Shown: positions 18,915 through 55,413, numbered from the stretch's first letter. The stretch is 64,000 bases of DNA from a virus (IMGVR_UViG_3300024268_000040); one strand, 5' to 3'. Translations and numbers: made by a program. The notes: generated by a model not told the origin, from the letters alone.

Positions 18915-19128
18915 GAAACTGCAATATGTCCGTCCCACCTATGATAAACATTTCAATTTTTTGACGCCAGAAGGAATCGAATATGTCGAAACTTCTGGCA
19001 TCGATGCAGAAGAAATGGAAGTTAAAATTGATATTTTGGCTTCAGAATTATGGTTTTGTCAGCATATGACTGACTATATTTCAAATCTTATAAAAGTACA
19101 ACTAGAAGATGTAAAGGAGGATCCCTAA
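18889..19128 (+). CDS. Hypothetical protein.
   Basis: 79-aa ORF bridging rnhA and the topoA gene. Confidence 0.3.
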   Translation: MPRIATWDEKLQYVRPTYDKHFNFLTPEGIEYVETSGIDAEEMEVKIDILASELWFCQHMTDYISNLIKVQLEDVKEDP

Positions 19129-23870: not shown

Positions 23871-24062
23871 ATGAAACAAAAGGAAATCAAGAACCTCGCT
23901 CAGAAGATCGCTAAGTATGAGCGTATCATCCAAACCAGCGATGATAAAAAATAGGTTCGACAAGCAGAAGAAGAAATTATGAAGTTGTCTAGTAGTGTTA
24001 GTAGTCTGGAAGACATGGTCGCTATTGACGAACTCGTAATGGAAATGCTTGAAAAAAATTGA
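23871..24062 (+). CDS. Small coiled-coil protein with one TAG (23952), stop TGA.
   Basis: 63 codons, frame checked base by base. Confidence 0.35.
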
Positions 24063-24502: not shown

Positions 24503-25492
24503 ATGGAATGGTTGATTTTACTCGCCTCTGTGCTCGTTGCTGCCGGATTAGGCGGCTTTATCACATATCGACTGTTTAGATAGCGGCTATTTGCCGTCCA
24601 GGAGTTCGACAAGTCGATTGCTATGAAAAACGAGCAATTAAGAGAAGAAAATAAGATTTTAGAAGAGAATAATCAAGATTTATTCAATCAAAATGATTAT
24701 CTAAAATCTGAAAAAATCAAGCTGGATATTCAAAACCAATCTGCTAAAGAGTAGTTGGAGAGCCTCAATGGCAGTATCTCAGCTATGGAAAAGTAGGCTC
24801 AAGAGGCCGCTGAACTATTCTATGCGTCTCGTATGTAGGCTGCATAGGAGAAACTCGCGCAATCACTTCAAGAAGAAAACCAAAAATATCAAGATAATAT
24901 AATTGGTTTTTAGACTGAATATGATAAAACTGTTGCTGATATGTTAGAAGCTTTTCAAGAGTTATCTGATAATGTAGCTGTTATGCGAGCTACAAATGAC
25001 GCCGCAGTTGCCGCAGCCAAGAGAGCCGCTGAAATGAAAGATTAGTAGGCTTTTTATCGCATTTAGTTATCTGACGCAGATATTCACGAAATTGAATTAT
25101 TGCGATAGGTTGAACCCTATTTGCGAGATAAGGAGCCTTTGAATAAAGTCATATGGAAATGCTATTACGAAAAACCAACCACCGACCTTATTGGTCGAGT
25201 AATTGGTACAGGAGTAAAAACTGGAATTTATAAAATTACAGAAATTGAAACTGGTAAATGCTATGTTGGTTAGGCTGCTAATTTAGCAGACCGTTGGAAA
25301 TAGCATATTAAGCGTGGTGTAGGCGCAGAAACGCCAACCCGCAACAAACTCTATCCTGCAATGATTGCGGCCGGCCCAGAGAATTTCACTTTTGAGGTCG
25401 TCGAAATCTGCGATCGCTCTGCGCTCGATGCGCGTGAGGACTACTGGCAGGATTATTTCAAGGCGAAAGAATTTGGATACAGTATAAAGTAA
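24503..25492 (+). CDS. Membrane-anchored coiled-coil protein with a C-terminal GIY-YIG nuclease domain; 12 in-frame TAG codons in 330.
   Basis: N-terminal TM MEWLILLASVLVAAGLGGFI, then a long coiled coil, then GIYKITEIETGKCYVG-Q-AANLADRWK-Q-HIKRG...ENFTFEVVEICD...ARE.YW. The TAGs fall where the two other phage GIY-YIG proteins have Gln (YIGQS, RWRQH). Ends at TAA 25490. Confidence 0.7.
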
Positions 25493-30313: not shown

Positions 30314-31362
30314 ATGGCGTCTAAATACGTCGATACAACAGCTATAATGTAGGTTATTGGCTGTGTTTTCAATACTCCTCAACTTTTGGAAATTACTGAT
30401 AGGTATTCAATCGTTGATGAAGATTTCGCCGATCCGTTTCACAAAACGATTTTCGGTGCAATTTATAAAATCCATGAGTTAGGTGCGAATAAAATTACAT
30501 TAGAAAGCATTTCTGATTTCTTCGCATCTCGACCCAAGAGCGCGGCTGTATATAAGCAAGGGAAGGGCGAAGAATGGCTACTCAAGGTATCTGAGAGTAG
30601 TATTCCATCAGCCTTCGATTATTATTACGGTCGTTTGAAAAAATTCTCTCTATTGAGAGCATTTGATAACTGCGGCATTGATGTTACTGACATTTATGAC
30701 CCAGATAATATTTTGGATGTAAAGAAGAAACAACTTCAAGAGGATCAATTAGATAATTCTTCACTGGAACAGATTGCTGATATTGTCGATGCGAAGATTG
30801 ATAATATTAGATTGCAATATGTTGATGATGCTTTTGGTGAAGCTCAACAAGCCGGTGAAGGTATTTTTGATTTGATTGAGAAATTCAAACAGCATCCAGA
30901 AGTCGGTGTACCTCTATATGGTCCGCTAATCAATACAGTTACTCGAGGCGCAAGACTGAAGAAATTTTACTTGCGGTCTGCGGCTACTGGTATCGGTAAG
31001 ACCCGTTCAATGATTGCGGATTGCTGCTACATCGGCTGCAATAAGATATATGATGAAACATTTGGTTGGATTGGCAGCGGTCCTGCAGAGCCAGTCTTAT
31101 TTATCACGACCGAGCAGGAGCTTGAAGAAATCCAAACTATGATGTTGGCATTTTTATCAAATGTAAATGAGGAACATATTCTAAATGGTGAGTATGGTGA
31201 GGGTGAGGAAGAGCGTGTTATGCAGGCTGCTAAACTCTTGAAAGAAAGTCCTATTTATGTTGAAGAATTACCAGATTTCTCATTGAAAGATGTAGAAGAT
31301 AAGATAAAGAAAAATATTCGTGAGCACGATGTAAAATATGTGTTCAACCCTATTAAAAGGGT
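30314..31362 (+). CDS. dnaB: DnaB-family replicative helicase, exon 1 (3' boundary approximate, 31347-31362). TAG at codon 13.
   Basis: SD gaggaagggga before ATG 30314. The N-terminal domain, Walker A SAATGIGKT and H1a region run into ...HDVKYVF. The read-through ORF hits TGA at 31373 inside intron sequence. Confidence 0.7.
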
Positions 31363-32435
31363 GTTGGGACAATGAAACACTTTTCCGCTAATCAGCGGGG
31401 TACCTGCGGCGGGCCCGGTCAAAGACCGGCGAACCGAGCAACCGCAAGTGCTAACGGGGAACCCTAAACAGTAATGCATGGGAATCCCGTGGGAAACTTT
31501 GGACGGAACTAGTCAATTGAGCTTTGACTTCTTTCATACTATAATGAAAGGAGTGGTTCTATGGGAATTATTTATTGTTTTACAAATAATGTAAATGGTA
31601 AAAAATATATCGGACAATCCATTAGCAAAGGTAATGCTCGATATAATAATCATAAAAGCAGTTATAAAAATCCAGATGATTGTGAATATGAATCTCCACT
31701 TCATCGAGCATTCCGCAAACACGGATTTGAAAATTTTACTTATGAAGTATTAGCACAAGATGTTGAAAATATTGATTTATTAAATCAATTAGAAATTCAA
31801 TATATTCAACAATATAATTGTCAAATACCAAATGGTTATAATATTGAACCCGGCGGTAAAAATTGTGCTAAACCCAAAACAATAGAGCATAGAAAGAAAG
31901 AAATTTGGGCTCAAGCGAAATTGACAGAAGAAGAAGTTATTGAATTAAGAAAGGCATATCAAAGAAAAGAAAGTCCTACTAAAATATATAAAGAAAAGTA
32001 TGAAGATATAATGCATTATAATTCTTTTCTAAATATTTGGTCTGGACGAAGATATGCTCTTATTATGCCAGAAGTATTTGAAAATGGACGTCATACAAAA
32101 CTCAATGCTGAAACTGTAAAACTTATTAGAAAGGATAGAGAAGAAACAAATCTTTCTTATGATAAGTTAGCAGAGAAGTATGGCATTTCAAAAGGCACTA
32201 TTGCTGACATAATCAAAAAACGAACTTGGAAAGATGTCTAAAGAACCTGTATCGACTATCCCCCAGGCCTTCTGGGCGGGGGAGTAGGGGTGCTATTGAT
32301 ACGCACTTGGATTTTAGGAAACGAAGTCCATTAAATGCCGAAACGGTGTCCTGCGGGACCCGGTCAGCCGTTCGCTGAACCGGGGCGACCGCAGTAAAAG
32401 ATAGTCAGCGCTTATAGAAATATAAGAGTCCGTTG
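31363..32435 (+). mobile_element. Group I intron (td-like core) carrying a GIY-YIG homing endonuclease gene; boundaries approximate.
   Basis: IGS candidate aacac (31376) complements exon gtgtt. aacggggaacc...ggaatcccgtgg resembles the td-intron P4-P6 core. R-like ggtcaaagaccgg and S-like aagatagtcagc elements are present. P9 hairpin cttata-gaaa-tataag before a terminal G. Coding resumes in frame ...DYIHTSLKILEE. Confidence 0.55.
31561..32241 (+). CDS. Intron-encoded GIY-YIG homing endonuclease.
   Basis: GIIYCFTNNVNGKKYIGQS...R..NH motifs. C-terminal HTH-like DNA-binding region. Its own SD aaaggag. Confidence 0.85.
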   Translation: MGIIYCFTNNVNGKKYIGQSISKGNARYNNHKSSYKNPDDCEYESPLHRAFRKHGFENFTYEVLAQDVENIDLLNQLEIQYIQQYNCQIPNGYNIEPGGKNCAKPKTIEHRKKEIWAQAKLTEEEVIELRKAYQRKESPTKIYKEKYEDIMHYNSFLNIWSGRRYALIMPEVFENGRHTKLNAETVKLIRKDREETNLSYDKLAEKYGISKGTIADIIKKRTWKDV

Positions 32436-32946
32436 CCACGATTATATTCATACGAGTTTGAAAATTTTGGAAGAAATCACTAAGCGTTCTGGTGGTGTCA
32501 AACTGAGAGAAGATAATATCTTGTTTATGTTATCTACTCGATTGAAAGATATCTGCAACCAACATGGTGTGTTTATCATGTCAGCCACTCAGTTGAACGG
32601 TGATTACCAGGATAGTAAAACTCCAGACCAGAACTTACTGCGTGGTGCGAAAGCTATCGCAGATAAGATTGACTATGGCTCCATTCTTCTTTCTGTAAAA
32701 GATGATGATTTGGTAGCCTTAGAAAATATATTATCCTCTAATATTTTTGAAAGACCTACAATTAAGATGTCAATTTACAAAAATAGACGAGGTAGATATA
32801 AGGGCGTAATTTTATGGTGTAAGGCAGATTTGGGCGTGTGTCGTATTAAACCAATGTTCTGCACTACCTATGATTATGAAATGGTGAGTATTGACGATGT
32901 TCGTATTAGAATTGACGAAGAATCAGCCTTCGAGTGCGAAGAGTAA
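32436..32946 (+). CDS. dnaB: DnaB-family helicase, exon 2 (5' boundary approximate).
   Basis: NILFMLSTRLKDICNQHGVFIMSATQLN matches the DnaB H3/H4 region EISRSLKALAKELNVPVVALSQLNR. Stop TAA 32944. Confidence 0.7.
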
Positions 32947-33022
32947 TCGAGGGCTGAGAGCAAAAGCTAATTTGTTACATGATTCCGATTTTGGAATTGT
33001 AAATAAGAAGGAGATAAATGAA

Positions 33023-33340
33023 ATGGCTGATTTTGTAAAAAACGATAAGAGAAATAACAACAACGGTAAGAAGAACTTCAATCGCAACAACAACCGCCCC
33101 AATAACAAGCCTAACAATGGTTTTACCGGCAAGAAGCGTGACACTGTGCCCGCTCCCGATGTTTGCGCCGGCACCGTCGAGTACAAGATGGGTAAGCTGA
33201 TGGCTGATGAAATCCTCAAGGCTGCCAAGGGTAAGAGTGGCAAGTTACCCAAGCCCGCACATGAGATTCTGTGCGATTATGTAAATACTCAGATGGGTCT
33301 GAAAGGATACTGCGTCAAGGTTCTTGTTGATATCAACTAA
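33023..33340 (+). CDS. Small basic Asn-rich protein, possibly nucleic-acid binding.
   Basis: SD aaggag before ATG 33023 within listed ORF 32891..33340. Confidence 0.35.
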   Translation: MADFVKNDKRNNNNGKKNFNRNNNRPNNKPNNGFTGKKRDTVPAPDVCAGTVEYKMGKLMADEILKAAKGKSGKLPKPAHEILCDYVNTQMGLKGYCVKVLVDIN

Positions 33341-34443
33341 TGTTGGTATTTGATAAAACCAAAATCCGTGAGGCTCTCACCGACGAAAATGTATTCGATT
33401 TACTTCAAGAATGGGGCGGAGATCCGAGTCGAGACACATTCGGCTTCGTCTCCGCTACCATCTGTCACAACCCTCCTGGTGAAGGTAGTAGAAAGCTATA
33501 TTACTATGAAAACACCGGCTTGTTCCGCTGCTACACTGGCTGCGATAGTTATTTCGATATTTTCGAGTTGACAGCCAAGGTCGCTCAGATTCAATGGCAT
33601 AGAGAGTTCGACCTAAATGACGCAGTAAGGTGGATCGCTCAAAGATTTGGATTTTCTGGCGACCATGAAAATAGACCAGAAGATGAAGATTTAGACGATT
33701 GGAAATACCTAGCTAACTACGAGCGAATTCAAGATATTGAGGTGAAGGATAACTCGGTTATCCTAAAAGAATATGAAAATGGTATATTGGAACGCTTCAA
33801 CTACTCGCTGAAGATAGGTCCCTGGTTGCGAGAGGGTATTACTCAGGCCGCATTAGACCAAGCAAAAATTGGTTTTTATCCAGGAGGCGACCAAATCACA
33901 ATTCCGCATTTCGATAAAGATGGTCGATTTGTGGGACTGCGCGGACGCACCCTGTGTGCGGAAGAGGGCGAGCGTTTTGGTAAGTATAGACCGATGCGTA
34001 TAAACGGACAATTATATAATCATCCTCTTGGAATGAACTTATATAACTTTAATAACAGTCGTAAGAATATTGGTGTTATGAAAAAAGCGATTATTTTTGA
34101 AGGAGAAAAATCTTGTCTGTTATATCAATCATATTTCGGATTAGAAAATGATATATCGGTTGCGTGTTGCGGTTCAAGCGTATCGGCTTGTCAGATTCAA
34201 ATGCTCTTAGACGCTGGCGCAGAAGAGATTATAATTGCGTTTGATCGCCAGTTCCAAGAAATTGGTGATGAAGAATTCAAGCATTTGAAAATGAATTTAT
34301 TGCGATTAAGAACAAAATATAAGAACTATGCAACAATATCTTTTATATTCGATAAAAATAAAATTACAGGATACAAGGACTCGCCGATCGACTGCGGGCC
34401 GCAAGTATTCCTGCAACTATTCAAAGAGAGGATAGTGTTGTAA
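33340..34443 (+). CDS. dnaG: DnaG-like DNA primase (CHC2 zinc finger plus TOPRIM).
   Basis: CHNPPGEGSRKLYYYENTGLFRCYTGC zinc-binding motif. IIFEGEKSCLL and IIAFDRQ TOPRIM motifs. Confidence 0.8.
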   Translation: MLVFDKTKIREALTDENVFDLLQEWGGDPSRDTFGFVSATICHNPPGEGSRKLYYYENTGLFRCYTGCDSYFDIFELTAKVAQIQWHREFDLNDAVRWIAQRFGFSGDHENRPEDEDLDDWKYLANYERIQDIEVKDNSVILKEYENGILERFNYSLKIGPWLREGITQAALDQAKIGFYPGGDQITIPHFDKDGRFVGLRGRTLCAEEGERFGKYRPMRINGQLYNHPLGMNLYNFNNSRKNIGVMKKAIIFEGEKSCLLYQSYFGLENDISVACCGSSVSACQIQMLLDAGAEEIIIAFDRQFQEIGDEEFKHLKMNLLRLRTKYKNYATISFIFDKNKITGYKDSPIDCGPQVFLQLFKERIVL

Positions 34444-34496
34444 TGTACGACCTAAATGAAGTATTCAAAAATGGTCCATAGGACATTCAAGAGCGC

Positions 34497-34763
34497 ATGG
34501 ATGTAATTGCTAATACCATTGACGGTATTATGAAATTGCAAAGTGAGCTTCAAGCGCTAGGCTATTGGTGTCCTCACTGTCAGAGATGGTATTATCAAGA
34601 TGATTGTGGACTTCGAGAAAAAACATATACTAAACTCATTTGTACTAATCCCTTCCAAGGATATTTAGATCCTTATGAGTATGAAGAGCGTACAGTTCAC
34701 GACTGGTATGATATTTGCCCCGAAGGCCATGAAATTAGTAGTAAACCGAGGTTCCAGCTATGA
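34497..34763 (+). CDS. Small zinc-ribbon protein.
   Basis: CPHCQ...C motif in an 88-aa ORF. Confidence 0.35.
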   Translation: MDVIANTIDGIMKLQSELQALGYWCPHCQRWYYQDDCGLREKTYTKLICTNPFQGYLDPYEYEERTVHDWYDICPEGHEISSKPRFQL

Positions 34764-35116
34764 GAGGAATTATTTGGGCCTATGAAAGTGATGGGGCGAA
34801 TGAAAAATTACTTGAAATTGAAGAGCAGTATGCTCGAATGGATATTAAACCAATAAGACGAGTAATTAGTAAATCTGCAGGCTCTTGGATTTTATTCGAT
34901 AATGATGATATTTGGAGAGTTGTGCGCGCCTCGGATAGCGGACGAGGTCACTCGGCAAATGTGTCTTATATCGACCGCCGCATTTCTCAAGAAGCAATCA
35001 ACACCATTATTAAGCCAGCAACTAAGGCTATGCCTTATCAATCATTTCGTTTTTATCTTCCTTCCTCTTATGACTGGACGAGAGAGGATGAAGAAATTGA
35101 AGCAAAATTCATATAA
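34760..35116 (+). CDS. Hypothetical protein.
   Basis: 118-aa ORF with ATGA overlap. Confidence 0.35.
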   Translation: MRGIIWAYESDGANEKLLEIEEQYARMDIKPIRRVISKSAGSWILFDNDDIWRVVRASDSGRGHSANVSYIDRRISQEAINTIIKPATKAMPYQSFRFYLPSSYDWTREDEEIEAKFI

Positions 35117-35157
35117 TAAGTTAGTGGTGATCTACATGAAAGGAGGTTGAATACTTT

Positions 35158-36897
35158 ATGGAGTATCAACTTATTGTACCTAATATCCCGCTGGAGAAAT
35201 AGCTAACAGCGGTCGAATAGGTACTTGCCAACCGGGGCATTGTACCGGCGAATGTAGAACACTATCTACATACTACTGATGCAGATATTTTAGACCCAAA
35301 AATTCTTATGAATATCCAAGAGGGTGTAAAACTTCTCATCAAACATATCGCACAAAATGACAAAGTTCTAATTCAGATTGATAGCGACTGTGATGGTTAT
35401 ACAAGTGCGGCCGCCCTTATCAACTATCTGAATTGTCTATTCCCCGGTTTTGTGTAGAACAATGTATATTATCGTATCCATACGGGGAAACAGCACGGCA
35501 TTATTCTTGATACTGTTCCCGCAGATGTCAAGTTAGTGATTGCGCCCGACTCAAGTTCCAATGATTATGAAGAGCATAAGACATTGGCTGAAAAAGGCGT
35601 GGATGTGCTGGTAATTGACCACCACGAAGCAGATAGTATCTCAGAACACGCCTGTATTATCAACAATCAGCTGTGTGATTATCCCACTAAGTCTTTGTCT
35701 GGTGTCGGAATGGTATATAAATTCTGTTCCTATATCGACGAGCTTATGAATGTTGATTATGCAGATCAGTTTTTAGATTTGGTCGCACTCGGAATGGTGG
35801 CCGACATGATGGATCTACGCGATTTTGAAACGAGACACCTTATCACGCGAGGACTCGAGAATATTCGCAATCCATACTTCAAGGGAATGGTAGACAAACA
35901 AGCATATTCGTTGAAAGACGGTATCAGTCCTATTGGAGTAGCTTTTTATATTGCTCCCTATGTAAATGCCACGATAAGAATGGGAACGCAGGAAGAAAAG
36001 CTCATGCTATTCGAGTCTATGCTTGACTATCGGGGATATGAACTAGTCCCATCAACCAAGAGAGGATGTAAGGGTCAGCAGGAGACGAGAGTAGAACAGG
36101 CTTGTCGTAATTGCACTAACATCAAAAATAGGCAAACAAAAGCAAGAGACGCAGCCTTGGAGACAATTGAACGCATAATCAAAGAGAAAAATCTGTTAGA
36201 GAATAAGATTTTGGCTATCAAATTAGATACTTTTGCGGCCGATAAAAACCTTACTGGTTTGATTGCAAACCAGCTAATGGCGAAATATCAACGCCCAGTA
36301 CTTCTACTTAATAAGACAGAAGATGGCTGGGAGGGTTCAGGAAGAGGATACGATAAATCGAAATTTGATAACCTCCGTGAGTTTTTGAAAGATAGTGAAT
36401 TGGTAATGTATGCAGAAGGTCACGCCAACGCATTGGGTGTTGGTATCACTGATGCAAACTTTACTCAATTTGTAAATTACTCCAATCACGCTTTGGCAGA
36501 TTTTGACTTTACCCCTTGTTATAAGGTTGATTTCATTTTCCACGGTGATGATTTCAGAGGAAAAGACATTGTGGAAATTGCTGAACTCAAATCTTTATGG
36601 GGCCAAGGAGTAGATGAACCTCTGGTTGCCATCGAACATATCAATCTACATAAAGATAATATTGTTCTTATGTCACCAGACAAGAGTCCTACTCTAAAGA
36701 TAACCTTACCAAATGGTACGAGTTTAATCAAATTCAAGTCGTCACAAGAGGAGTATGAAAAATTACACTCTGAAACTGGTTGTATAACCATCAATGTTGT
36801 GGGCAAGTGTGAACGCAACATATGGAATGGTATTGTAAGTCCACAAATTATTATTGAAGATTACGAAATTGTAGGAGAACAGAAATACTATTTCTAA
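35158..36897 (+). CDS. recJ: RecJ-like DHH-family ssDNA exonuclease; three in-frame TAGs in the first 93 codons.
   Basis: SD aaaggagg before ATG 35158. IDSDCDGYTSAAALINYL (DHH motif I) is upstream of the listed ORF. VIDHHE motif III. DHHA1-like C-terminal region. Confidence 0.75.
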
Positions 36898-36930
36898 TTG
36901 ACGGCCTGATAGTAATATTAGGAGGAAATT

Positions 36931-37821
36931 ATGAAACAGAAAATTATCGGTGTATTGTTGATTATAGCCATGTTTATTAGCACTCTAAGTGTTATTGCAT
37001 ATGCAGCAGGTACTGTGGTCGCAGACACCAATCCAGTTGCTACTTTTTCGGAAGATTACATCCCTTCTGAGACTACCACCTTTCCAGTAGATACTGAGTC
37101 TACTGAACCAGAAGAGGTAGTTATTGTATTAGATACCGTGGAGTTCAAGCGTGTTGAACCTACTACATATGATGAAGCTACTTCTCTATTGGAAGAAGCT
37201 ATTGCTCGCCAGGAGCTTACTGAAACCATCTATCAAGGTTTCCTAACTCTCGGTTATGCGGACGACCATCCCGCAGTAGTATTAGCTAAAACCGATATTG
37301 AAAATGCAACAATTGAAGTTGAGTATTACCAAGAGCAATTCTCAATTTGGGAAGAGAAACTCAAATGGGAGAAGCGTGCGGCCGAGTATCCAGTTGCTAC
37401 TCAAGTCTGGCTCTATATGAAGAATGAGCTGGGTTATAGTGATACTGTGTGCGCCGGTATTATGGGTAATATGATGGCTGAGTGCGGCGGTTGCTGGACT
37501 TCCGATCTCGATTGGGACGTACATAGCTCAAGTGGTTTCGGTATGATTCAGTGGCTAGGCGGCCGCAAGCGTCAACTATTTTCAATTTACGGAGAAAATC
37601 CAAGTATTGAAGATCAGCTCAATTTTATGCACGATGAGTTGCACGGCACTGATGGAGTTACCAAACAAGTTACAAATTGGCAACTCGAGCAAATCATGGA
37701 AGCCGACACTCCGGAAGAATGTGCCTACGCCTTCGCTTGTTATTTCGAGCGTTGTGGTGAAGGACATAGAGCGCCTCGTAGAGGATACGCAAGACGAGCT
37801 TACGAGTATTTCGTAGGGTAA
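36931..37821 (+). CDS. Signal-anchored protein with a C-terminal lysozyme-like (tail-lysozyme/ORF14-type) domain.
   Basis: N-terminal signal/TM segment. GIMGNMMAECGG...GFGMIQW is similar to the GLMGNLFAESGL domain of the 4554 lysin. Confidence 0.55.
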   Translation: MKQKIIGVLLIIAMFISTLSVIAYAAGTVVADTNPVATFSEDYIPSETTTFPVDTESTEPEEVVIVLDTVEFKRVEPTTYDEATSLLEEAIARQELTETIYQGFLTLGYADDHPAVVLAKTDIENATIEVEYYQEQFSIWEEKLKWEKRAAEYPVATQVWLYMKNELGYSDTVCAGIMGNMMAECGGCWTSDLDWDVHSSSGFGMIQWLGGRKRQLFSIYGENPSIEDQLNFMHDELHGTDGVTKQVTNWQLEQIMEADTPEECAYAFACYFERCGEGHRAPRRGYARRAYEYFVG

Positions 37822-37828
37822 GTAAATA

Positions 37829-37871
37829 GGTTATATAGGGGTTCGCCCCTATATAACCCTTATTTTTGTTT
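37829..37871 (+). terminator. Strong rho-independent terminator.
   Basis: 13-bp perfect stem ggttatatagggg-ttcg-cccctatataacc plus a T-run. Confidence 0.65.
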
Positions 37872-37886
37872 ATAGGAGATGGAAAG

Positions 37887-38330
37887 ATGGCAGTTTTGAA
37901 ATAGATACAAAATGATATTATGCTAAACTTACCAAGCGTATCAGACGCTACAATAAGTTTGAGTTCAGTGGTGGCCCAAGTCGGCTGTACCACATAGCAA
38001 ATGACAGAAGCTCTGCGTAAGTTATCAGAGTTGATGCAACAGATGGATTGGGCGACTACTGAAATCACTGCCATAAAGGATTCAATGAGTGATTTGAGGT
38101 ATGATGTGGATTGTGCGGATGCCGCTAATAGCGCTCGGACAGACTTGGTAGAAATGCAAATAGACGAGCTCCGATCGGCATTGGACGCCAAGACCGAAAA
38201 CTCAAATCAAAAAGGCGGTTTAGAAATTTCAAATCGAATTGTTCCCAGTGAGGATTTTCTTATTTTGGGAGATATTGGTTGGTCTGATGATATTATAAAC
38301 TTAGACAAGACCAATATGTTTTTGAATTGA
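37887..38330 (+). CDS. Hypothetical protein with TAGs at codons 6 and 37.
   Basis: SD aggag before ATG 37887. In frame with listed ORF 38001..38330. Confidence 0.4.
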
Positions 38331-38378
38331 TTTATATAAAATATTTTGGTATAATAAAAATAAAAAGGTGAGAATAAA

Positions 38379-38666
38379 ATGACGGATTACGCAAAAAGTC
38401 TGAAAGAAAAATTGGATATTGTAAGATTACCAAGAGAAGATTTCGATGAATTGGTAAAAGACCGTTTAGATTTTGGATTTGATAGTATCTATTTTAGATA
38501 TGCCGAAGTCTGTGATGAATTGGCTGCGTATATGTCTAGAGCCGATCATATTGACCCCGTTGACGCGCGTCGGCGTATGAATGGTCGTAAGCAGCATTTT
38601 TATATGACATTAGAACAGCTGGTTCACGCCCATCCAAAGGAGGATGAAAATGGTACTTACTGCTAA
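38379..38666 (+). CDS. Hypothetical protein.
   Basis: 95-aa ORF preceded by a TTGATT-17-TATAAT promoter at 38331-38360. Confidence 0.4.
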   Translation: MTDYAKSLKEKLDIVRLPREDFDELVKDRLDFGFDSIYFRYAEVCDELAAYMSRADHIDPVDARRRMNGRKQHFYMTLEQLVHAHPKEDENGTYC

Positions 38667-39825
38667 ATAGGAAGAGGGATTAAAGATTGCGGTCGCCCGC
38701 TATAAGAACAATGAACCCTGGACCTGTATCGCCGGTTACGCTGGTACTGGTAAGAGTACACTTGTGAAGTTTATCGTTGCAGCGCTGGGTCTATATCCCG
38801 CAGAGGTTTGTTATATCGCATTCACAGGCAAGGCCGCAAAGGTTTTGCGTGAAAAAGGATGCGAGAATGCCATGACCGCACACAGACTGTTATATCAGTC
38901 CTATCCTCGCAATGATGGAACATTCTATCACAAACCTCGTAGACCTCTGGACTATCCATATAAGTTGATTGTTGTCGATGAAATTTCAATGCTTCCAAAA
39001 GAGATTTGGGATTTGTTGACTTCACATCGTATTCATGTTATTGCTCTTGGCGACCCCGGCCAGCTTCCTCCTATTGGTGAGTCTAATGGAGTGCTCGACC
39101 ATCCGCACATTTTCTTGGATGAGATTATGCGCCAAGCCCAGGAGAGTGAAATCATTCGTTTGACTATGGATATTCGAGACGGCAAACCTCTCGAACTCTT
39201 CCGAGGAAACGAAGTGCAAATCATTGATAAGAAAGATGTTGTGTCTGGTATGTATACTTGGGCCGACCAGATCCTTGTAGCAAAGAATGAGACACGCCGT
39301 ACGGTAAATCATCTTATGCGTAAGTATTTACATGACATTGACGATCCGACTCCAATAGTAGGAGATAAGGTTATTTGTTTGCGGAATGACTGGGATCATC
39401 CGAGTGAAGCGGGCGATGTAATGGTGAATGGCACTATTGGCACACTTACTAAGATTGATTTGTTGAATAACAATCCTTATTTGCGGCCGATGATGGTTTG
39501 CGATTTTTGGTCTGATGATTATTCAGACGATGATGTTGAAAACTCTCCACAGGATTTGATTTTCCGTGGTGTAAATATGGATTACAGATTACTCACTACT
39601 GGTGAGCCGACCGTAACCGCGCAGAACTGGAAGCGCTTCCCTAAGATTTGGCGCCCCCGTGAATTCGACTATGGTTATTGTATTACTACCCATAAGGCGC
39701 AGGGTAGTGAATATGATAAAGTTCTTGTTTTTGAAGAATTTTTGCGTGGTGGACACCATGCAGAGTGGCTATATACAGCTGCTACGCGCGCCAAAGAAAA
39801 GCTCGTTATCGTGCGAGATAGTTGA
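38650..39825 (+). CDS. RecD/Dda-like SF1 helicase with TAG at codon 7.
   Basis: SD aaggagg before ATG 38650. Walker A GYAGTGKST lies upstream of listed ORF 38764. VVDEISM Walker B. C-terminal helicase motifs (ITTHKAQGSEYD). Confidence 0.75.
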
Positions 39826-39829
39826 CAAT

Positions 39830-39864
39830 AGAGAAAAAAATTGGTATAATATAGTATAAGAAAT
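39830..39864 (+). promoter_or_regulatory. Promoter TTGACA-17-TATAAT plus the conserved tggtataatatagtataagaaa box.
   Basis: ttgaca atagagaaaaaaattgg tataat. Confidence 0.5.
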
Positions 39865-39885
39865 CAAATTGAAAGGGATAATCGA

Positions 39886-42800
39886 ATGGGAACATATTTC
39901 AATATTCACAACCATACAATGTATTCGAATATCCGCTTACTCGATTGTATCAATAGACCTAAGGACCTCATTGACAAAGCAATTGAATTGGGTCTTTCCG
40001 GCATTGCGATTACAGACCACGAATGTCTATCCGGACATATGGAAGTCAATCAGTATGCTTAGAAGATAAAGGAGAAGTATCCCGATTTTGTAATTGTTTT
40101 AGGCAATGAGGTTTATTTAGTAGATAAACGAGAGAGTGGTATCAAATATTATCACTTTATTCTAACTGCCAAGGATGAAATCGGACACAAGGCTCTGCGT
40201 GAATTGAGCTCAACTGCTTGGTATCATTCCTATGTCGATCGAGGTATGGAGCGCGTGCCCATTACCAAAGACGAATTGGCAACCATTATGGCGAAGTATA
40301 AGGGGCATGTAATTGCTTCAACCGCCTGTATGGGTGGCGAGTTATCCACCGCCGCATACAACATGGCCTGCGCTGAAAATGTCAATGATAAGATTTCCGC
40401 AGGAGTGTTTTATAATCAAATTTGCGATTTCATCAAGTATTGTCTTGATGTGTTCGGTAATGATTTCTATATTGAATGTGCGCCTTCAACCGCTGAGGAT
40501 CAATGTATCACCAACCGCAAGTTATATCGTATTGCAAAAGCATATGATATTCCTTTGATTGTTGGTACTGACTCTCACTATCTCACCAAGGAAGATAGAT
40601 ACGTCCATAAGTCTTATCTAAATTCTAAGGGCGGCGAGCGTGAGGTTGATAGTTTCTATGAGTTTGCTCATTTGATGTCATATGATGAAGTTTATAAACT
40701 ATTGCATCATTGCTTTGGAAATGATTATATTGTCACTGAAATCTTAGAAAACTCTCGTAAATTGGGTGAACAATATACTTCATACTCTTTAGAGCGTAAA
40801 CAGATGATTCCTAAGATTCCTCTGCCAACTCATTCTGAACGAGAAATTCAAGAGTACATTCCATATGAAATCGATTGGAACCTAAATAAGTTCTATCCAT
40901 GTTTAGCGCATTTGTTAGTTGATGGTAACGTCCAAGAGAGATATTGGCTATATGAGTGCGCGAAGAGCCTAAATGAAAAAGGCTTACAAGATAAAGTTGA
41001 ATATTGGCAGAGATTAGAAACCGAAGCTGATGTTATTTTAGATATTGGAGAGAAATTAGATGACTGTCTATTCGCCTATTTCAACACCTTCAAGCATTAC
41101 ATCGACCTATTCTGGGAGTGTGGCTCAATTGTTGGCCCAGGTCGAGGCTCGGCCACAGGATTTTTGTCTAACTACCTCTTGGGCATCACGCAGCTCGACC
41201 CCATCAGATGGAATCTACCTTACTGGCGTTTCCTTAATAAGGAGAGAGCCGAGTTGCCCGATATTGACATTGACCTCGCTCCATCAAAACGACCCGCAAT
41301 TTTTGAAGCAATTCGTAAAGAGCGTGGAGAGTTGGGACTTATCCAGGTCGCAACCTTCGGAACAGAAGGAACGAAATCAGCTGTACTCACGGCTTGCCGC
41401 GGTTATCGAAGCGAGGATTTCCCAGATGGAATCGATGTCGATCAAGCCCAGTACATGTCTTCTCTAATCCCCCAAGAGCGTGGATTCTTATGGCCGATTA
41501 GTGATGTTATCAACGGCAATGAGGAGAAAGATAGAAAACCCGTTGCTCCATTCATTCGAGAAGTAAATAACTATCCTGGTCTATTGGCTATTATTCAGTC
41601 AATTGAAGGACTAGTAAATAAGCGTTCTTCTCACGCTTCGGGTGTTATCTTATATGGTAGTGACCCGTTTGAAACTGCGGCATTTATGAGAACTCCAAGT
41701 GGAGATTTGATTACCTGCTATGACCTGCATAAAGCAGAGGCCGCAGGTGATACCAAGTATGACTTCTTGGTAACTGAAATTTCAGATAAGATTATCAAAT
41801 GTTTTGAATTACTTACCGCAGATAAAGTAATTGAAGATATTGGTTTGCGTAATCTATATAATAAGTATATTCATCCAGAAGTGATTGATACAACTGATCC
41901 CCGCATTTGGGAGCATCTTGCGGCCGGTGATGTTCTGGATGTGTTCCAGTTCAGCACTGGCGTTGGATTAGCTATTGCAAAAAAGTTGAAACCAAAGAAT
42001 CCTATGGAGATGACTGCGGCGAACGCAATGATGAGACTTATGTCTGAAAAAGGCAAGGAATCTCAGCAAGATAGATATGTTCGTATCCAAAAGCGAGGAT
42101 TGGAAGAATTTGATCGAGAAATGCACGAAGCTGGTCTGGATCAAAATATGATTGCGCTAATGCATAAGCATTGTGACCAATACTGGGGTTGTTGTGCTAT
42201 CCAGGAGCAGATGATGGAATTACTTATGGATGTTGCAAATTTCACATTAGGTGAAGCCAATAATGCGAGAAAGATTGTTGGTAAGAAGCAAATGAGTAAG
42301 ATTCCGGAATTGCGCGAACAGGTCTATAGTAAATTTGACCGGGTTCAGTCGGCAAATTATTTCTGGGAAAATGCAATTGCACCCCAGTTAGGATATGCAT
42401 TTAGTCTGAACCACTCTCTGCCTTATTCTTTTGTTGGTATTCAATCAATTTACTTTGTTATGAATTTCAATCCAATTTATTGGAATACTGCTTGTTTGAT
42501 TGTAAACAGTGGTGCAACTGATGAAGAAGCAGGAGGTTCAACTGATTATGGAAAAATTGCCAAAGCAATCGGTGATATCACTGGTGCAGGAATTAAAGTT
42601 AGCTTGGCAAACATTAATAAATCAGATTTTGGATTTGCTCCAGATGTAGAAAATAATCGAATTCTTTTTGGATTGAAAGGTATGTTGAATGTGGGCGATG
42701 ATTTGATTGCCAGCATTATTGAAAACAGACCTTATAGCTCTCCAAAAGATTTCTTGAATAGAGTTAGACCCAGTAAGCAAGCTATGATTGCCCTTATCAA

Positions 42801-43779
42801 GGGTGGCGCATTTGACGATATGGAAGAGCGTCAATTTGTAATGGCTTGGTATATCTGGGAGACTTGTGATAAGAAGAGTCGTATCACCTTACAAAATATG
42901 GGTGGACTTATCAAGCACGGATTATTGCCTGAAAAAACTGAAGAGCAAATTCTCGCTCGTCGAGTATATGAGTTCAATAGATATTTGAAGGCAATTACTA
43001 AGGCTGATAAGTATGCTTATAAGGATATGTATAGTCTTGATACGAGAGCAATCGCTTTCTTGCAGGAGATTGATTGCGAAAATCTTATGACAACAGATAA
43101 TGTGTCTTGGTATATAAAAACTAAGGCTTGGGATAATGTATACCAGAAGCATATGGATGTATTCAGAAAGTGGATCGCCGCAGAAAAAGATACAATCTTA
43201 AATGCGCTGAATACAGAAATCTTCATGGAAGATTGGAATAAATATGCGAAGGGTACTATCTCTGCGTGGGAGATGGAAGTCTTGTGCTTCTATTATCATG
43301 ACCACGAATTGCAAAATGTCAATAATGATAAATATGGCTTTGTTGATTTCAACCTATTGCCAGAAGATCCGATCATTGAAAAGACATTCCATAAGGGAGG
43401 CAAAGACATTCATATCTTTCATTTGAATCGTATTTGCGGAACTTGTATTGCAAAGAATAAGACTAAGAGTACAGTTACCATTTTGACAACAACAGGTGTT
43501 GTAAATGTCAAATTCAGAAAAGAATATTTTGCGATGTTCGATAAGCAGATCTCCGAGCGTGGCGCAGATGGCGTCAAGCACGTCGTTGAGAAGAGTTGGT
43601 TCAACCGCGGTAATATGATCGTCGTAACGGGAATCCGCAGCGGTGATGATTTTGTTTCTAAGAAGTATGCTTCTACTGGCGGACATCAGCTATATCGTAT
43701 CAATGAGATCTTGGATAATGGTGACTTAGTATTACAAGATAGTCGTTATCAAGGAGGCACTGCAGAAGATGTTGACTAA
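39886..43779 (+). CDS. DNA polymerase III alpha subunit (PHP-domain family C polymerase), ~1297 codons with a single TAG at 40060.
   Basis: The N-terminal PHP motif (FNIHNHTMYSN...ITDHE) lies upstream of listed ORF 40204 in the same frame. Polymerase core motifs follow. Confidence 0.8.
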
Positions 43780-43990
43780 GAGATATGTAAAAAAAGCATA
43801 TGTATTAGAAGCGTTCTGCGATAAGTGTGGTAGTAAAATGGTGAGCACGGGGATGGTATATTCTACCTACCCCGAGCAATACCCATTCCGTTGCAGTAAC
43901 CCCGACTGCGATGGTCGTGCTACCTTCTGGGCGCATGAAGTCCCCGGAAAAATTCAATATGAGTTTGAGGAGGACAATGAAAATGTATAA
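43769..43990 (+). CDS. Small zinc-ribbon protein.
   Basis: CDKCG...CSNPDC in a 73-aa ORF. Confidence 0.35.
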   Translation: MLTKRYVKKAYVLEAFCDKCGSKMVSTGMVYSTYPEQYPFRCSNPDCDGRATFWAHEVPGKIQYEFEEDNENV

Positions 43991-44570
43991 AATAGTTCTT
44001 TTTATGGGTAAAGGCGGCGCTGGTAAAGACTCATTGATGAAATAGGTATTAAAATTACTCGCTGAAAAGAAAATTATTTCTGAGGTCCACGAGATCGTAA
44101 GCTGTACCAGTAGACCAATGCGAGAGGGCGAAGCTCACGGCATCAATTACTATTACTATCATCCCGATGATTTTGCAATGAAAATTATGAATGATGAAAT
44201 GTTGGAATTTACTAATTTCAACAATTGGTGGTATGGTACTAGTTATGAGTCTGTACGCAGCGATGGCATTATCAATATCGGTGTTTTCAATCCTGCGGGT
44301 GTGCGGCAGTTGCTTGACCGGCCGGATTGTGAAGTCACTGTTTATTGGGTAACTGTTTCTGATAAACAGCGCTTATATCGTCAGCTTAGTCGAGAGGAAA
44401 ATCCCGACGTTAAAGAGATTGTTCGTCGCTTCAATGCTGATGAAGAAGATTTTGCTGATATTGATTTTGACTACACCGAAGTTGTCAACGAGACTTTTGA
44501 CGATTTCTATGCGAACGCCGAGCAGATTGCAGGCCAGATCGAGGACATGCTCGCGCAAGGACGACATTGA
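43983..44570 (+). CDS. Guanylate/nucleoside-monophosphate kinase-like protein with TAG at codon 21.
   Basis: P-loop GKGGAGKDS lies upstream of listed ORF 44118 in frame. STTR-like CTSRPMREGE. YYY..P..F motif. Confidence 0.65.
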
Positions 44571-47930: not shown

Positions 47931-48389
47931 GTGGCTGAAACAAAAACAATTACAACTTACGATGGTGTTAAGTATTAGAAAGTAACTCTTGAAGAAATTG
48001 GCAATACTGGACACTATAAAGAAATTAATCGTTCTACTAGTTCAATTTTAGGTCTCTTAGATGATATAAAAGAATTAGAATAGGCAAAGATTAATATTAA
48101 TAATTTTAAAGTTCGAAATGGTACCATATACATTTTAACTGATTCTATTATGACCGGTTTAAATGCAAAATATTATTATATATTTACTTCTATTGCAATA
48201 CATTATCCGAAAGACTATAATACTCTCGCAGATGGTGTTATTAAAGCATTAGAAGAATTAGGATATGTTCGTGAAATTATATATAATAACGAAGAAATTA
48301 TATTTACATTAATTTCTAAACAAGATGAAAAAGAGTTGGTACTTTATTTACGTCCCATTGCAAATGATGTAAAAGTTGTTGGAGGATAA
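47931..48389 (+). CDS. Hypothetical protein with TAGs at codons 16 and 48; GTG start.
   Basis: In frame with listed ORF 48150..48389. Start assignment uncertain. Confidence 0.3.
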
Positions 48390-53991: not shown

Positions 53992-54414
53992 TTATGCTTC
54001 ACGAGTAACAATTAAGTTCGCATTTTGAACAACTACTGCGTCAGTAGATGTATTCTTCACGCTAACACTAACGCAACATCCGCGAGGAACGTCAATAAAT
54101 ACACTTGACTTCACATTGAAGAACTGTTCAACTGCGGCGGGGGTAATAATCATAGTAGTAGCAGGAACGGGCTCACCATCAATAGCAATAGCCAAAGAGA
54201 TTGGGCCGACAGTTCCATCTGTGGGAACAGCAATATTGCCGCCAAAAGTCACCATAAAACGAGCGCGGCACTGGGAGTTGGTGACTCCGCGAAGAGTCAC
54301 CAAACCAGAATCGTCTCTATGACCTATGGACATATTGCCACAAATAACGGTGTCTGTGAAATAAACATTTTGATTTGCTGGGACAGTCTATACAGCATTA
54401 GCAATAATTTCCAT
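53992..54414 (-). CDS. Beta-rich hypothetical protein (TAG at codon 9).
   Basis: Extends listed ORF 53992..54333 upstream to the ATG at c(54412..54414), which has SD aaggagg. Confidence 0.4.
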
Positions 54415-55158: not shown

Positions 55159-55413
55159 TTAGTTGTTGTAGCCTAATGCACGTTTGAAGGCTTCAAATTC
55201 AGAGTCGAAATCCTAACCGCCCTATTGAGCGTAAATATTGCGAACTACTTTCTCTAGTTCCGCAGTGCGACCCTGTTGAGCTAAACTCAGGAGATTTCTT
55301 CCGAGGGGATTATTGTAGGCCTGACCCTAAAGCACGGATAACATTAACTATTGAGGGTTTTTACCAGACCTAATCATTGAAATTAAAACATTGGGATCTA
55401 CTGGATACATCAT
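55159..55413 (-). CDS. Small protein with 4 in-frame TAGs in 84 codons.
   Basis: SD ctaaggaggtatga-ATG on the minus strand. Read to TAA. Confidence 0.35.

What the first reader, a model, noticed from the sequence alone, without database searches (positions are those of the whole stretch)
30314..44100. TAG codons clustered in the first ~25 codons of many genes, a possible translational gate
The first in-frame TAG lies at codon 4 (gene 407 and gene at c61265), 5 (fiber 2), 6 (37887), 7 (RecD-like), 9 (c54414), 13 (DnaB, fiber 4), 14 (fiber 3), 15 (RecJ), 16 (47931), 21 (GMP kinase), 22 (c55413) and 26 (2513). A TAG this early gives a tiny peptide unless it is suppressed. That would make expression depend strictly on the recoding machinery, and on release-factor 1 competition in the host.
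Basis: inference. Interest (0 to 1): 0.65.

Follow-up and report, generated by a model that had tools for sequence, protein, structure and literature searches.

The report
Early amber codons in recoded phage
This phage reads the stop codon TAG as glutamine; here TAG falls in the first ~25 codons of about twice as many genes as chance predicts, but related phages barely show this and the early TAGs are not conserved, so a purpose-built "gate" is not supported.

Summary
The window is part of a large SPbeta-like phage of a Shine-Dalgarno-using (Firmicutes-type) host. It reads TAG as glutamine (genetic code 15). I curated 66 genes; 33 carry 96 in-frame TAGs. DnaB codon 13, RecD-like codon 7 and gene c54414 codon 9 replace a glutamine that is (near-)invariant in relatives.

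The excess is modest. There are 18 TAGs at codon 26 or earlier against 9.6 expected (p about 0.004, cut-off chosen after seeing the data). A test without a cut-off on all TAGs shows nothing (KS p=0.55).

In 103 recoded related loci (2,046 genes) the first-30-codon excess is only 1.07-1.37-fold. It is absent in the first 10 codons. In genes of at least 150 codons, density is flat over the first 150 codons. What does replicate is a slow fall in TAG use beyond about codon 200 in long genes.

Early TAGs are not conserved at orthologous positions (3%, against 7% for later ones).

Verdict: stop-codon recoding is known. Any in-frame TAG makes a gene depend on suppression. The early clustering is a local fluctuation on a weak 5' bias, best explained by failed read-through being cheaper near the start. 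It is not a dedicated gate.

The parts
407..676 (+). Small gene (89 codons) with TAG at codons 4 (416-418) and 6 (422-424).
   Evidence: Strong SD (aaaggagg, 7 nt spacer) before the ATG at 407. Found by the automatic caller. No orthologue check.
2513..2941 (+). Gene with TAG at codon 26 (2588-2590) and codon 114.
   Evidence: SD AAGGAG. 26 orthologues align from the N-terminus; the TAG column holds varied residues in them.
9099..10886 (+). Tail-fibre paralogue 2. TAG at codon 5 (9111-9113) and four later ones.
   Evidence: SD and the N-terminus MGKL#ING shared with three paralogues.
12254..14329 (-). Tail-fibre paralogue 3. TAG at codon 14 (14288-14290) and ten later ones.
   Evidence: SD and the shared N-terminus MGALKIN.
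23871..24062 (+). 63-codon gene with its only TAG at codon 28 (23952-23954).
   Evidence: Orthologues align from residue 1; the column is mostly A or E, and one orthologue has TAG.
24503..25492 (+). Densely recoded gene (12 TAGs), the first at codon 27 (24581-24583).
   Evidence: The aligned residue at codon 27 is P in 15 of 18 orthologues. Several later TAGs are shared with relatives.
30314..31375 (+). DnaB helicase, N-terminal part of a split gene. Its only TAG is at codon 13 (30350-30352).
   Evidence: Translate. Pfam DnaB_N matches residues 12-102. The PDB DnaB alignment spans the TAG. The column is Gln in 36 of 41 orthologues and TAG in 4.
34443..34763 (+). 106-codon gene with its only TAG at codon 13 (34479-34481).
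   Evidence: SD. One orthologue, L038, aligns from residue 1 with D at that column.
35158..36897 (+). RecJ-like exonuclease. TAG at codons 15 (35200-35202), 21 (35218-35220) and 100.
   Evidence: 8-nt SD. PDB RecJ alignment from residue 17. The N-terminus MEYQLI is conserved in about 55 orthologues. Codon 21 is Gln in 23 of 33.
37887..38330 (+). 147-codon gene with TAG at codons 6 (37902-37904) and 37.
   Evidence: SD AGGAG. Only weak orthologues (39-41% identity), which carry TAGs at other positions.
38650..39825 (+). RecD-like SF1 helicase. Its only TAG is at codon 7 (38668-38670).
   Evidence: Translate. Pfam AAA_30, UvrD_C_2 and PIF1, the last from residue 3. The column is Gln in 34 of 34 orthologues and none has TAG.
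43983..44570 (+). Guanylate kinase. Its only TAG is at codon 21 (44043-44045).
   Evidence: Pfam Guanylate_kin residues 3-181. TAG at codon 20 or 21 recurs in three other lineages (L004, L007, L048/L032); it is absent in the rest.
47931..48389 (+). 152-codon gene with TAG at codons 16 (47976-47978) and 51. The start is the least certain of the set.
   Evidence: GTG start overlapping the upstream TGA, no SD match of 4 nt or more, no orthologues found.
50504..52240 (-). Tail-fibre paralogue 4. TAG at codon 13 (52202-52204) and six later ones.
   Evidence: SD and the shared N-terminus MGTLKVNG.
53992..54414 (-). 140-codon structural-module gene. Its only TAG is at codon 9 (54388-54390).
   Evidence: 8-nt SD. 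The column is Gln in 21 of 22 orthologues and none has TAG.
55159..55413 (-). 84-codon gene with TAG at codons 22 (55348-55350), 29 (55327-55329), 64 and 67.
   Evidence: SD taaggagg before the ATG at 55413.
55424..55867 (-). 147-codon gene with a Gln-rich N-terminus. TAG at codon 22 (55802-55804).
   Evidence: SD. Orthologues carry TAGs at various positions in the same Gln-rich stretch.
61053..61265 (-). 70-codon gene with its only TAG at codon 4 (61254-61256).
   Evidence: SD GGAGGT. Two orthologues align from residue 1 with E at that column.
39886..43779 (+). DNA polymerase III alpha-like gene (counter-example). Its only TAG is at codon 59 of 1,297.
   Evidence: The column is K in 28 orthologues, N in 11 and Q in 3.
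15695..21503 (+). Block spanning GyrB-like (15695-17614) and GyrA-like (19128-21503) with three small genes between. GyrB, GyrA and two of the small genes are among the 33 TAG-free genes that can be translated in the standard code; the third, 17821-18057, has TAGs at codons 40 and 76.
   Evidence: Pfam; TAG-free list.

Best explanation
The phage translates TAG as glutamine (genetic code 15). Read-through is presumably by a CUA-anticodon suppressor tRNA encoded outside this window. TAG is then simply a third Gln codon. It is dense in fibre and structural genes (0.75% of codons), sparse in the replication and nucleotide-metabolism block (0.29%), and absent from half the genes.

The early TAGs are recent, lineage-specific replacements of CAA or CAG, often at conserved Gln residues. 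They are not maintained sites. Their roughly 1.9-fold excess in the first 26-30 codons of this window is sampling noise on top of a weak family-wide 5'-to-3' decline in TAG use.

I infer that the decline reflects cost. A ribosome that loses the contest with release factor at a TAG wastes little, and leaves only a harmless peptide, when the TAG is near the start. So selection against TAG grows with distance from the start. It matters most in sparsely recoded genes, which may be expressed while suppression is still incomplete.

Shown: the recoding, Gln identity, positions, statistics, and lack of conservation. Inferred: the suppressor tRNA, release-factor competition, and the cost argument.
For: Recoding and Gln identity:
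- Reading TAG as sense raises ORF coverage from 0.79 to 0.92.
- Window TAGs align mostly with Gln: DnaB-13 in 36 of 41 orthologues, RecD-7 in 34 of 34, c54414-9 in 21 of 22, RecJ-21 in 23 of 33.
- TAG-to-Gln has been shown by proteomics in other gut phages (PMC9523058).

Module contrast: 0.29% against 0.75% of codons, matching the published pattern.

No conservation: early TAGs are shared in 3% of orthologue comparisons, later ones in 7%.

Weak general bias:
- In relatives the observed-to-expected ratio for codons up to 30 is 1.07-1.37. For codons up to 100 it is 1.10-1.16, with p at or below 0.03 in every setting.
- In genes of at least 300 codons, TAG density is 0.40-0.44% (codons 2-30), 0.53-0.91% (31-100), 0.42-0.68% (101-200) and 0.24-0.32% (201-300), p at or below 0.0004. 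TAG as a share of Gln codons falls from about 0.15 to about 0.08.
- Genes with four or more TAGs are roughly uniform, whereas single-TAG genes are 5'-skewed.

Artefact control: in loci that look standard-code, the same gene caller yields at most 0.025 spurious early TAGs per gene, against 0.21 in recoded loci.

Theory: selection against premature termination is expected to be weakest at the 5' end (PMC13271495).
Against: - The window's own excess is nominally significant (p=0.002) and sharper than the family gradient.
- Five to seven TAGs lie at codon 10 or earlier here, where relatives are depleted.
- With the strictest filtering (60% dereplication plus homologue-supported starts) even the single-TAG skew fades (KS p=0.22), so the family gradient itself is weak.
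- No suppressor tRNA was found in the window or in 40 related loci, so the read-through machinery is assumed, not seen.
- The cost argument was not tested directly. N-terminal regions may just tolerate substitutions better, although CAA and CAG in the same genes lean slightly 3'.
Confidence: 0.55

Rival explanations
1. A dedicated translational gate. Selection places a TAG in the first ~25 codons of chosen genes so that only a tiny peptide is made until the phage's suppressor tRNA appears. This would time the expression of replication, fibre and other genes. Individual sites may turn over as long as one early TAG remains.
For: - Window excess: 16 genes with the first TAG at codon 26 or earlier, against 8.3 expected.
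- 8 of 16 single-TAG genes have it in the first 20% of their length.
- Essential replication genes carry a single early TAG at a (near-)invariant Gln (DnaB-13, RecD-7).
- RecJ in lineages with few TAGs has all of them within the first 100 of about 580 codons, at different positions: 15, 20, 34, 47, 55, 72.
- TAG at guanylate kinase codon 20 or 21 recurs in four lineages, counting the window.
Against: - Early TAGs are less conserved than later ones (3% against 7%).
- No RecD-like orthologue and few DnaB orthologues in recoded relatives carry any early TAG.
- No enrichment in codons 2-10, and flat density over codons 2-150 in 212-430 dereplicated genes.
- Any TAG that removes an essential domain gates equally well, so gating alone does not predict early placement.
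Confidence: 0.15
2. Chance and selection after the fact. The reader scanned one window, noticed small first-TAG numbers and chose the cut-off afterwards. First-TAG position is a minimum, so it is small in any gene with several TAGs.
For: - KS on relative position of all 96 TAGs gives p=0.55.
- With the strictest filters, relatives show 61 TAGs observed against 57 expected at codon 30 or earlier.
- If the family-wide factor of about 1.3 applies, about 14 early TAGs are expected here and 21 is only a mild excess (my approximate Poisson tail is about 0.06).
Against: - Within-gene permutation already allows for the minimum effect and still gives p=0.001-0.004.
- TAG ranks first of all codons for 5' enrichment both here and in the relatives dereplicated at 95% and 80%.
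- The excess in the first 100 codons replicates under every filter.
Confidence: 0.2
3. General N-terminal codon bias. Bacterial genes favour A/T-rich and rare codons in the first codons to keep the ribosome-binding region unstructured, and TAG simply shares in that bias relative to CAG.
For: In the window's first 30 codons CAA is 1.44-fold enriched and CAG is depleted to 0.53-fold.
Against: - In relatives CAA is 1.02-1.14-fold and CAG about 0.8-fold, while TAG is 1.4-1.9-fold when pooled.
- TAG is not enriched in codons 2-10, where a structure effect should be strongest.
- The excess survives shuffling TAG labels among Gln codons in the window (p=0.0006).
Confidence: 0.07
4. Mis-called starts. 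The true start lies downstream of the TAG, so the early TAGs sit in untranslated leaders.
For: One gene (47931) has a GTG start with no SD and no orthologue. Four more (407, 37887, c55413 and 34443, which has a single orthologue) lack strong orthologue support.
Against: - SD motifs of 4-8 nt (at least 5 nt in 14) at correct spacing precede 17 of the 18 early-TAG genes.
- For about 13 of them, protein similarity to orthologues, paralogues or Pfam and PDB models runs across the TAG.
- The measured artefact rate is at most 0.025 per gene.
Confidence: 0.03

Closest known systems
Stop-codon-recoded gut phages using TAG as glutamine (genetic code 15): crAss-like, Lak and the Garnet, Jade, Sapphire and Agate clades (Borges et al., bioRxiv 10.1101/2021.08.26.457843; proteomic validation in PMC9523058)
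   Same: In-frame TAG restores full-length conserved genes. TAG aligns with Gln. Use is heavy in fibre and structural genes, variable in replication genes, and about half the genes are TAG-free. Relatives include large genomes of 130-200 kb. The SD motifs fit a Firmicutes-type host.
   Different: No suppressor tRNA or release-factor gene lies in this 64-kb window or in 40 related loci. Core replication genes here (DnaB, RecJ, RecD-like, Pol III alpha, NrdD) each need read-through, so the code switch would have to precede replication rather than only late lysis. I searched three of these papers for terms about within-gene position (N-terminal, position, truncation) and found no discussion of TAG placement within genes.
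Streptomyces bldA / TTA system (a rare Leu codon read by one developmentally regulated tRNA; PMC2000904, PMC10327506)
   Same: Most target genes carry a single such codon, and most of those codons are poorly conserved (PMC10327506). That parallels the 16 single-TAG genes and the low conservation seen here.
   Different: TTA is a sense codon that stalls rather than terminates. A few TTA sites (such as adpA) are highly conserved and proven regulatory. No conserved early TAG was found here. Timing of the tRNA is unknown here.
Position-dependent selection against nonsense (premature-termination) errors in codon usage (PMC13271495)
   Same: It predicts that codons prone to premature termination are tolerated near the 5' end and avoided further along. 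That matches the fall in TAG density, and in TAG's share of Gln codons, beyond about codon 200 in long genes of relatives. It also matches the odd behaviour of the first 10 codons.
   Different: That model was built for ribosome drop-off at ordinary sense codons in yeast. Here the error would be release-factor termination at a reassigned stop codon. The effect seen is weak and was not measured as a cost.
SPbeta-like Bacillus phages (YorK RecJ-like exonuclease, YorI/YorL replication module)
   Same: They are the nearest cultured relatives of the RecJ gene (about 38% amino-acid identity over 99% of its length). Genome size and host type are similar.
   Different: SPbeta uses the standard code. 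No nucleotide-level match to any GenBank phage was found.

Membership tests
TAG-to-Gln recoded phage (genetic code 15) | In-frame TAG inside conserved genes; reading TAG as sense restores full-length ORFs. | tested here: met
   ORF coverage is 0.79 under code 11, 0.92 with TAG as sense and 0.80 with TGA as sense. DnaB, RecJ, RecD-like, Pol III alpha, NrdD and the fibres are full length only with TAG read through.
TAG-to-Gln recoded phage (genetic code 15) | TAG positions correspond to glutamine in homologues. | tested here: met
   Gln is the commonest aligned residue: DnaB-13 in 36 of 41, RecD-7 in 34 of 34, c54414-9 in 21 of 22, 25784-76 in 7 of 7, 50002-131 in 8 of 9.
TAG-to-Gln recoded phage (genetic code 15) | A phage-encoded suppressor tRNA with a CUA anticodon (and sometimes a release factor). 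| tested here: inconclusive
   ARAGORN finds no tRNA in the window or in 40 related loci, and Rfam finds nothing in the window. Relatives' contigs reach 200 kb, so most of each genome was not examined.
TAG-to-Gln recoded phage (genetic code 15) | TAG no longer used as a terminator. | tested here: inconclusive
   All 66 genes were delimited by TAA or TGA by construction (one search gives TAA 45 and TGA 19 for the first 64 genes). Three genes have a TAG 2-4 codons before that stop, which could be old or still-used terminators.
TAG-to-Gln recoded phage (genetic code 15) | Recoding concentrated in structural and lysis genes, with standard-code-compatible genes elsewhere. | tested here: met
   TAG density is 0.75% outside the 14.9-50.4 kb replication block and 0.29% inside it. 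33 of 66 genes are TAG-free, including GyrB and GyrA.
tRNA-gated codon regulon (bldA/TTA-like translational gate) | The gating codon is conserved in key target genes. | tested here: not met
   Early TAGs are shared at the same column in 9 of 282 orthologue comparisons. None of the RecD-like orthologues has it, and 4 of 41 DnaB orthologues do.
tRNA-gated codon regulon (bldA/TTA-like translational gate) | The codon is placed preferentially near the start across the family. | tested here: not met
   In relatives, codons 2-10 are at 0.75-0.8-fold of expectation. In genes of at least 150 codons density is 0.61-0.70% (codons 2-30), 0.66-0.81% (31-75) and 0.56-0.73% (76-150), not significantly different. 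In this window alone the criterion is met at about 1.9-fold.
tRNA-gated codon regulon (bldA/TTA-like translational gate) | The decoding tRNA is expressed later than the mRNAs it gates. | not testable with these tools
   No expression data, and the tRNA gene was not located.
Position-dependent selection against premature termination | Frequency of the termination-prone codon declines from 5' to 3' within genes, relative to its synonyms. | tested here: met
   In relatives' genes of at least 300 codons, TAG as a share of all Gln codons is 0.13-0.15, 0.16-0.22, 0.12-0.16 and 0.07-0.09 over codons 2-30, 31-100, 101-200 and 201-300 (chi-square p at or below 0.003). In the window alone the pattern is too noisy to judge.

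The most novel reading that the evidence does not exclude
Early TAGs are gates that turn over. In sparsely recoded middle genes (RecJ, guanylate kinase, DnaB and others), selection keeps at least one TAG near the 5' end so that the protein is made only after the code switch. The exact codon drifts among nearby Gln positions, which would explain both the lack of site conservation and the repeated independent early TAGs in RecJ and guanylate kinase.
Probability: 0.12. Interest if true: 0.6.

Novelty: new member of a known kind. Interest (0 to 1): 0.3.

Why it matters
If early TAGs were true gates, stop-codon recoding would be a gene-by-gene timing device with a readable signature, not only a coarse early/late switch. 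The data argue against that for this phage family.

Two useful points remain. First, core replication genes here need TAG read-through at near-invariant glutamines. So in this lineage the code switch must act before or during DNA replication, earlier than the "late lysis timer" picture.

Second, the weak 5'-to-3' decline of TAG in long, sparsely recoded genes hints that suppression is incomplete and costly. That is a testable, quantitative handle on how well these phages out-compete host release factor 1.

Practically, the window must be annotated with code 15. Under the standard code, half of its genes are truncated or lose their true N-termini.

Tried and rejected
- Megablast of 20 kb against GenBank phages: no match.
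- tRNA search in the window and in 40 related loci, and Rfam on the whole window: nothing. The recoding machinery could not be located, and no group I intron was found at the DnaB split.
- PDB alignments could not identify the amino acid encoded by TAG, because the aligned columns are variable in distant homologues. Close orthologues settled it as Gln.
- My first pooled early-versus-late comparison in relatives gave 1.4-1.9-fold. I set it aside as the main measure because short genes are both TAG-richer and over-represented among early codons. Within-gene permutation and fixed gene sets give 1.07-1.37-fold or flat.
- My first rule for calling a locus recoded (coverage gain above 0.08) left out sparsely recoded replication loci of recoded genomes. 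I replaced it with "at least 3 internal TAGs", which does not depend on early TAGs.
- The mis-called-start explanation was tested with loci that look standard-code and rejected as the main cause: at most 0.025 spurious early TAGs per gene.
- The base after TAG shows no special context: 74% purine, against 66% after CAA or CAG.
- A literature search found no earlier report of within-gene positional bias of reassigned stops in phages.

Full report
WHAT THE WINDOW IS

The 64-kb window is phage DNA of about 39% G+C. It has no tRNA, no Rfam family and no nucleotide match in GenBank phages. Under the standard code many conserved genes are broken. Reading TAG as sense raises ORF coverage from 0.79 to 0.92, whereas reading TGA as sense gives 0.80. 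Nearly every gene has a strong Shine-Dalgarno (SD) motif (AAGGAGG-like, 4-12 nt upstream). That allowed starts to be chosen without looking at TAG.

I curated 66 genes with 19,580 codons. Of these, 33 carry 96 in-frame TAGs and 33 carry none. Pfam and PDB identify:
- DnaB, RecJ, a RecD-like SF1 helicase, guanylate kinase, the NrdG activase, GyrB, GyrA and a tail lysozyme;
- Pol III alpha and NrdD by sequence inspection and orthologues.

The nearest cultured relatives of RecJ are SPbeta-like Bacillus phages (about 38% identity). IMG/VR holds many relatives on contigs of up to about 200 kb.

TAG ENCODES GLUTAMINE

At the window's TAG positions the commonest residue in orthologues is Gln:
- DnaB codon 13: 36 of 41
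- RecD-like codon 7: 34 of 34
- c54414 codon 9: 21 of 22
- RecJ codon 21: 23 of 33
- RecJ codon 100: 21 of 33

This is genetic code 15, known from gut phages and validated by proteomics elsewhere (bioRxiv 10.1101/2021.08.26.457843; PMC9523058). TAG density is 0.75% of codons in the fibre, structural and lysis parts and 0.29% in the 14.9-50.4 kb replication block. That is the published pattern.

CHECKING THE OBSERVATION

Every first-TAG position in the finding is reproduced.

The TAGs lie in real coding sequence:
- N-terminal peptides containing them are conserved in orthologues (RecJ MEYQLI..., DnaB MASKYVDTTAIM#VIG, RecD MVLTAK#EEGLKIA, c54414 MEIIANAV#TV) or in the four fibre paralogues (MG[TKA]LK[VI]NG).
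- Domain models start before or at the TAG.
- Only 47931 (GTG start, no SD, no orthologue) has a doubtful start.

IS IT MORE THAN CHANCE IN THE WINDOW?

I shuffled TAG positions within each gene, which allows for the fact that a "first" position is a minimum:
- TAGs at codon 26 or earlier: 18 against 9.6 expected (p=0.004).
- TAGs at codon 30 or earlier: 21 against 11.1 (p=0.002).
- Genes with the first TAG at codon 26 or earlier: 16 against 8.3 (p=0.001).
- Shuffling the TAG label only among Gln codons gives 13.1 expected at codon 30 or earlier (p=0.0006).

TAG is the most 5'-enriched of all codons (2.2-fold). However, the cut-off came from the data. A cut-off-free KS test on relative position of all TAGs gives p=0.55. 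Only single-TAG genes are skewed: 8 of 16 have the TAG in the first 20% of the gene (p=0.007).

INDEPENDENT TEST IN RELATIVES

I fetched 245 loci (about 4 Mb). I called genes with an automatic caller that agrees with my curation for 57 of 64 window genes. I kept the 103 loci with at least 3 internal TAGs, which gave 2,046 genes. Genes were dereplicated at 95, 80 or 60% identity. Starts had to be supported either by an SD motif or by a homologue below 90% identity whose alignment begins at both N-termini.

Results:
- Observed against expected for codons up to 30 ranges from 134/97.5 (lenient) to 61/57.0 (strict), that is 1.37- to 1.07-fold.
- For codons up to 10 it is 0.75-0.8-fold, so there is no enrichment.
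- For codons up to 100 it is 1.10-1.16-fold, with p at or below 0.03 in all settings.

With fixed gene sets, so that differences between genes cannot mislead:
- Genes of at least 150 codons: 0.61-0.70% TAG in codons 2-30, 0.66-0.81% in 31-75, 0.56-0.73% in 76-150 (not significant).
- Genes of at least 300 codons: 0.40-0.44%, 0.53-0.91%, 0.42-0.68% and 0.24-0.32% over codons 2-30, 31-100, 101-200 and 201-300 (p at or below 0.0004). TAG's share of Gln codons roughly halves in the last bin.

Single-TAG genes are 5'-skewed under most filters, while genes with four or more TAGs are close to uniform.

As an artefact control, the same caller on 28 loci that look standard-code yields at most 0.025 spurious early TAGs per gene. 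Recoded loci give 0.21.

An orthologue-anchored count around RecJ had suggested about two-fold (17 against 8.5 at codon 25 or earlier). It counts distinct positions pooled over lineages, and the broader analyses did not uphold that size.

CONSERVATION

If early TAGs were gates they should be kept. They are not.
- At the window's early TAG columns, orthologues have TAG in 9 of 282 comparisons (3%), against 33 of 457 (7%) at later columns. Orthologues at least 80% identical mostly have CAA or CAG.
- No RecD-like orthologue has an early TAG, and most DnaB orthologues have none.
- The one hint in favour is recurrence. RecJ lineages with few TAGs have all of them in the first 100 of about 580 codons, at varying positions. 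Guanylate kinase has TAG at codon 20 or 21 in four lineages, counting the window.

EXPLANATION

Shown: code 15, TAG as Gln, the positions, a roughly 1.9-fold local excess, a weak and broad 5' bias in the family, and no site conservation.

Inferred: a suppressor tRNA elsewhere in the genome competes with host release factor 1. Failure at an early TAG wastes little and leaves a harmless peptide. So TAG is tolerated near starts and selected against further along, mainly in genes expressed while suppression is incomplete. This is the logic of selection against nonsense errors (PMC13271495).

Rivals considered:
- A dedicated gate, possibly with site turnover.
- Chance with a cut-off chosen afterwards.
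- General N-terminal A/T-rich codon bias. CAA is 1.44-fold and CAG 0.53-fold here, but CAA is only 1.02-1.14-fold in relatives.
- Mis-called starts.

COMPARISON WITH KNOWN SYSTEMS

The window is a new member of the known class of TAG-to-Gln recoded phages. The defining features of a gate, conserved sites in key targets and family-wide early placement, were tested and not met. I searched three recoding papers for terms about within-gene position and found no discussion of TAG placement within genes. The slow 3' decline is therefore a small new observation. It needs a phylogeny-aware test on complete genomes.

VERDICT

The early clustering is not a general or conserved feature. One point is worth keeping: DnaB, RecJ, the RecD-like helicase, Pol III alpha and NrdD all need read-through, so in this lineage the code switch must act by the time of DNA replication.

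Noticed in passing
window 30314-32946: The DnaB gene is split. The first ORF (353 aa) ends at 31375 with the DnaB_C domain cut at profile position 134 of 255. A GIY-YIG plus HTH homing-endonuclease ORF follows at 31561-32241 (only 8 related loci have it). The rest of DnaB resumes in ORF 32398-32946 (homologous in 58 loci). Relatives have an uninterrupted DnaB of about 510 aa. Rfam finds no group I intron, so how the halves are joined, or whether they work as two proteins, is open.
   Followed up: partly
window 7492-8928 (-), 9099-10886 (+), 12254-14329 (-), 50504-52240 (-): Four paralogous tail-fibre-like genes share an almost identical leader and SD (gagagaaaggagattttat) and the N-terminus MG[TKA]LK[VI]NG, then diverge. 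They also share a C-terminal ...YYK[IT] ending. This looks like a cassette of alternative receptor-binding proteins on both strands.
   Followed up: no
window 722-2242: An SPFH/Band-7 (flotillin-like) gene with a long Ala/Glu/Lys-rich coiled-coil tail has about 50% G+C, against about 39% elsewhere. It carries a stop-free 552-aa antisense ORF (650-2308). It has no TAG. Only 10 related loci carry it.
   Followed up: partly
window 11647-12240 (-), 12254-14329 (-), 17821-18057 (+): Three genes have a TAG only 2-4 codons before the TAA or TGA that ends the ORF (codon 194 of 197, 688 of 691, 76 of 78). These may be former TAG terminators now read through to a back-up stop, or TAGs that still terminate part of the time.
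   Followed up: no
loci L061 and L065 (also L062-L064), relatives about 88% identical in GyrA: In these close relatives, reading TGA as sense raises ORF coverage by about 10 points (0.81 to 0.92), more than reading TAG as sense does. This may be TGA read-through or recoding, or an interrupted gene, in a close relative of a TAG-recoded phage.
   Followed up: no
103 recoded related loci: Across relatives TAG is under-represented in codons 2-10 (for example 11 observed against 19 expected) and peaks at codons 11-20. This window, by contrast, has 7 TAGs at codon 10 or earlier.
   Followed up: partly
window 14964-15716, and 24503-25492: A second GIY-YIG/NUMOD homing endonuclease (TAG-free) overlaps the start of gyrB (15695). 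The 12-TAG gene 24503-25492 also ends in a GIY-YIG-like motif by eye (GIYKITE...YVG). That would be a homing endonuclease written in the alternative code. It was not tested with Pfam.
   Followed up: no
window 61269-63998 (-): An ORF of more than 877 codons runs to the window edge. It appears as three separate standard-code ORFs split at two TAGs (codons 380 and 608). One junction has an ATG two codons after the TAG, so it could be read either as one large structural protein or as three genes. Only two orthologue comparisons were available.
   Followed up: no
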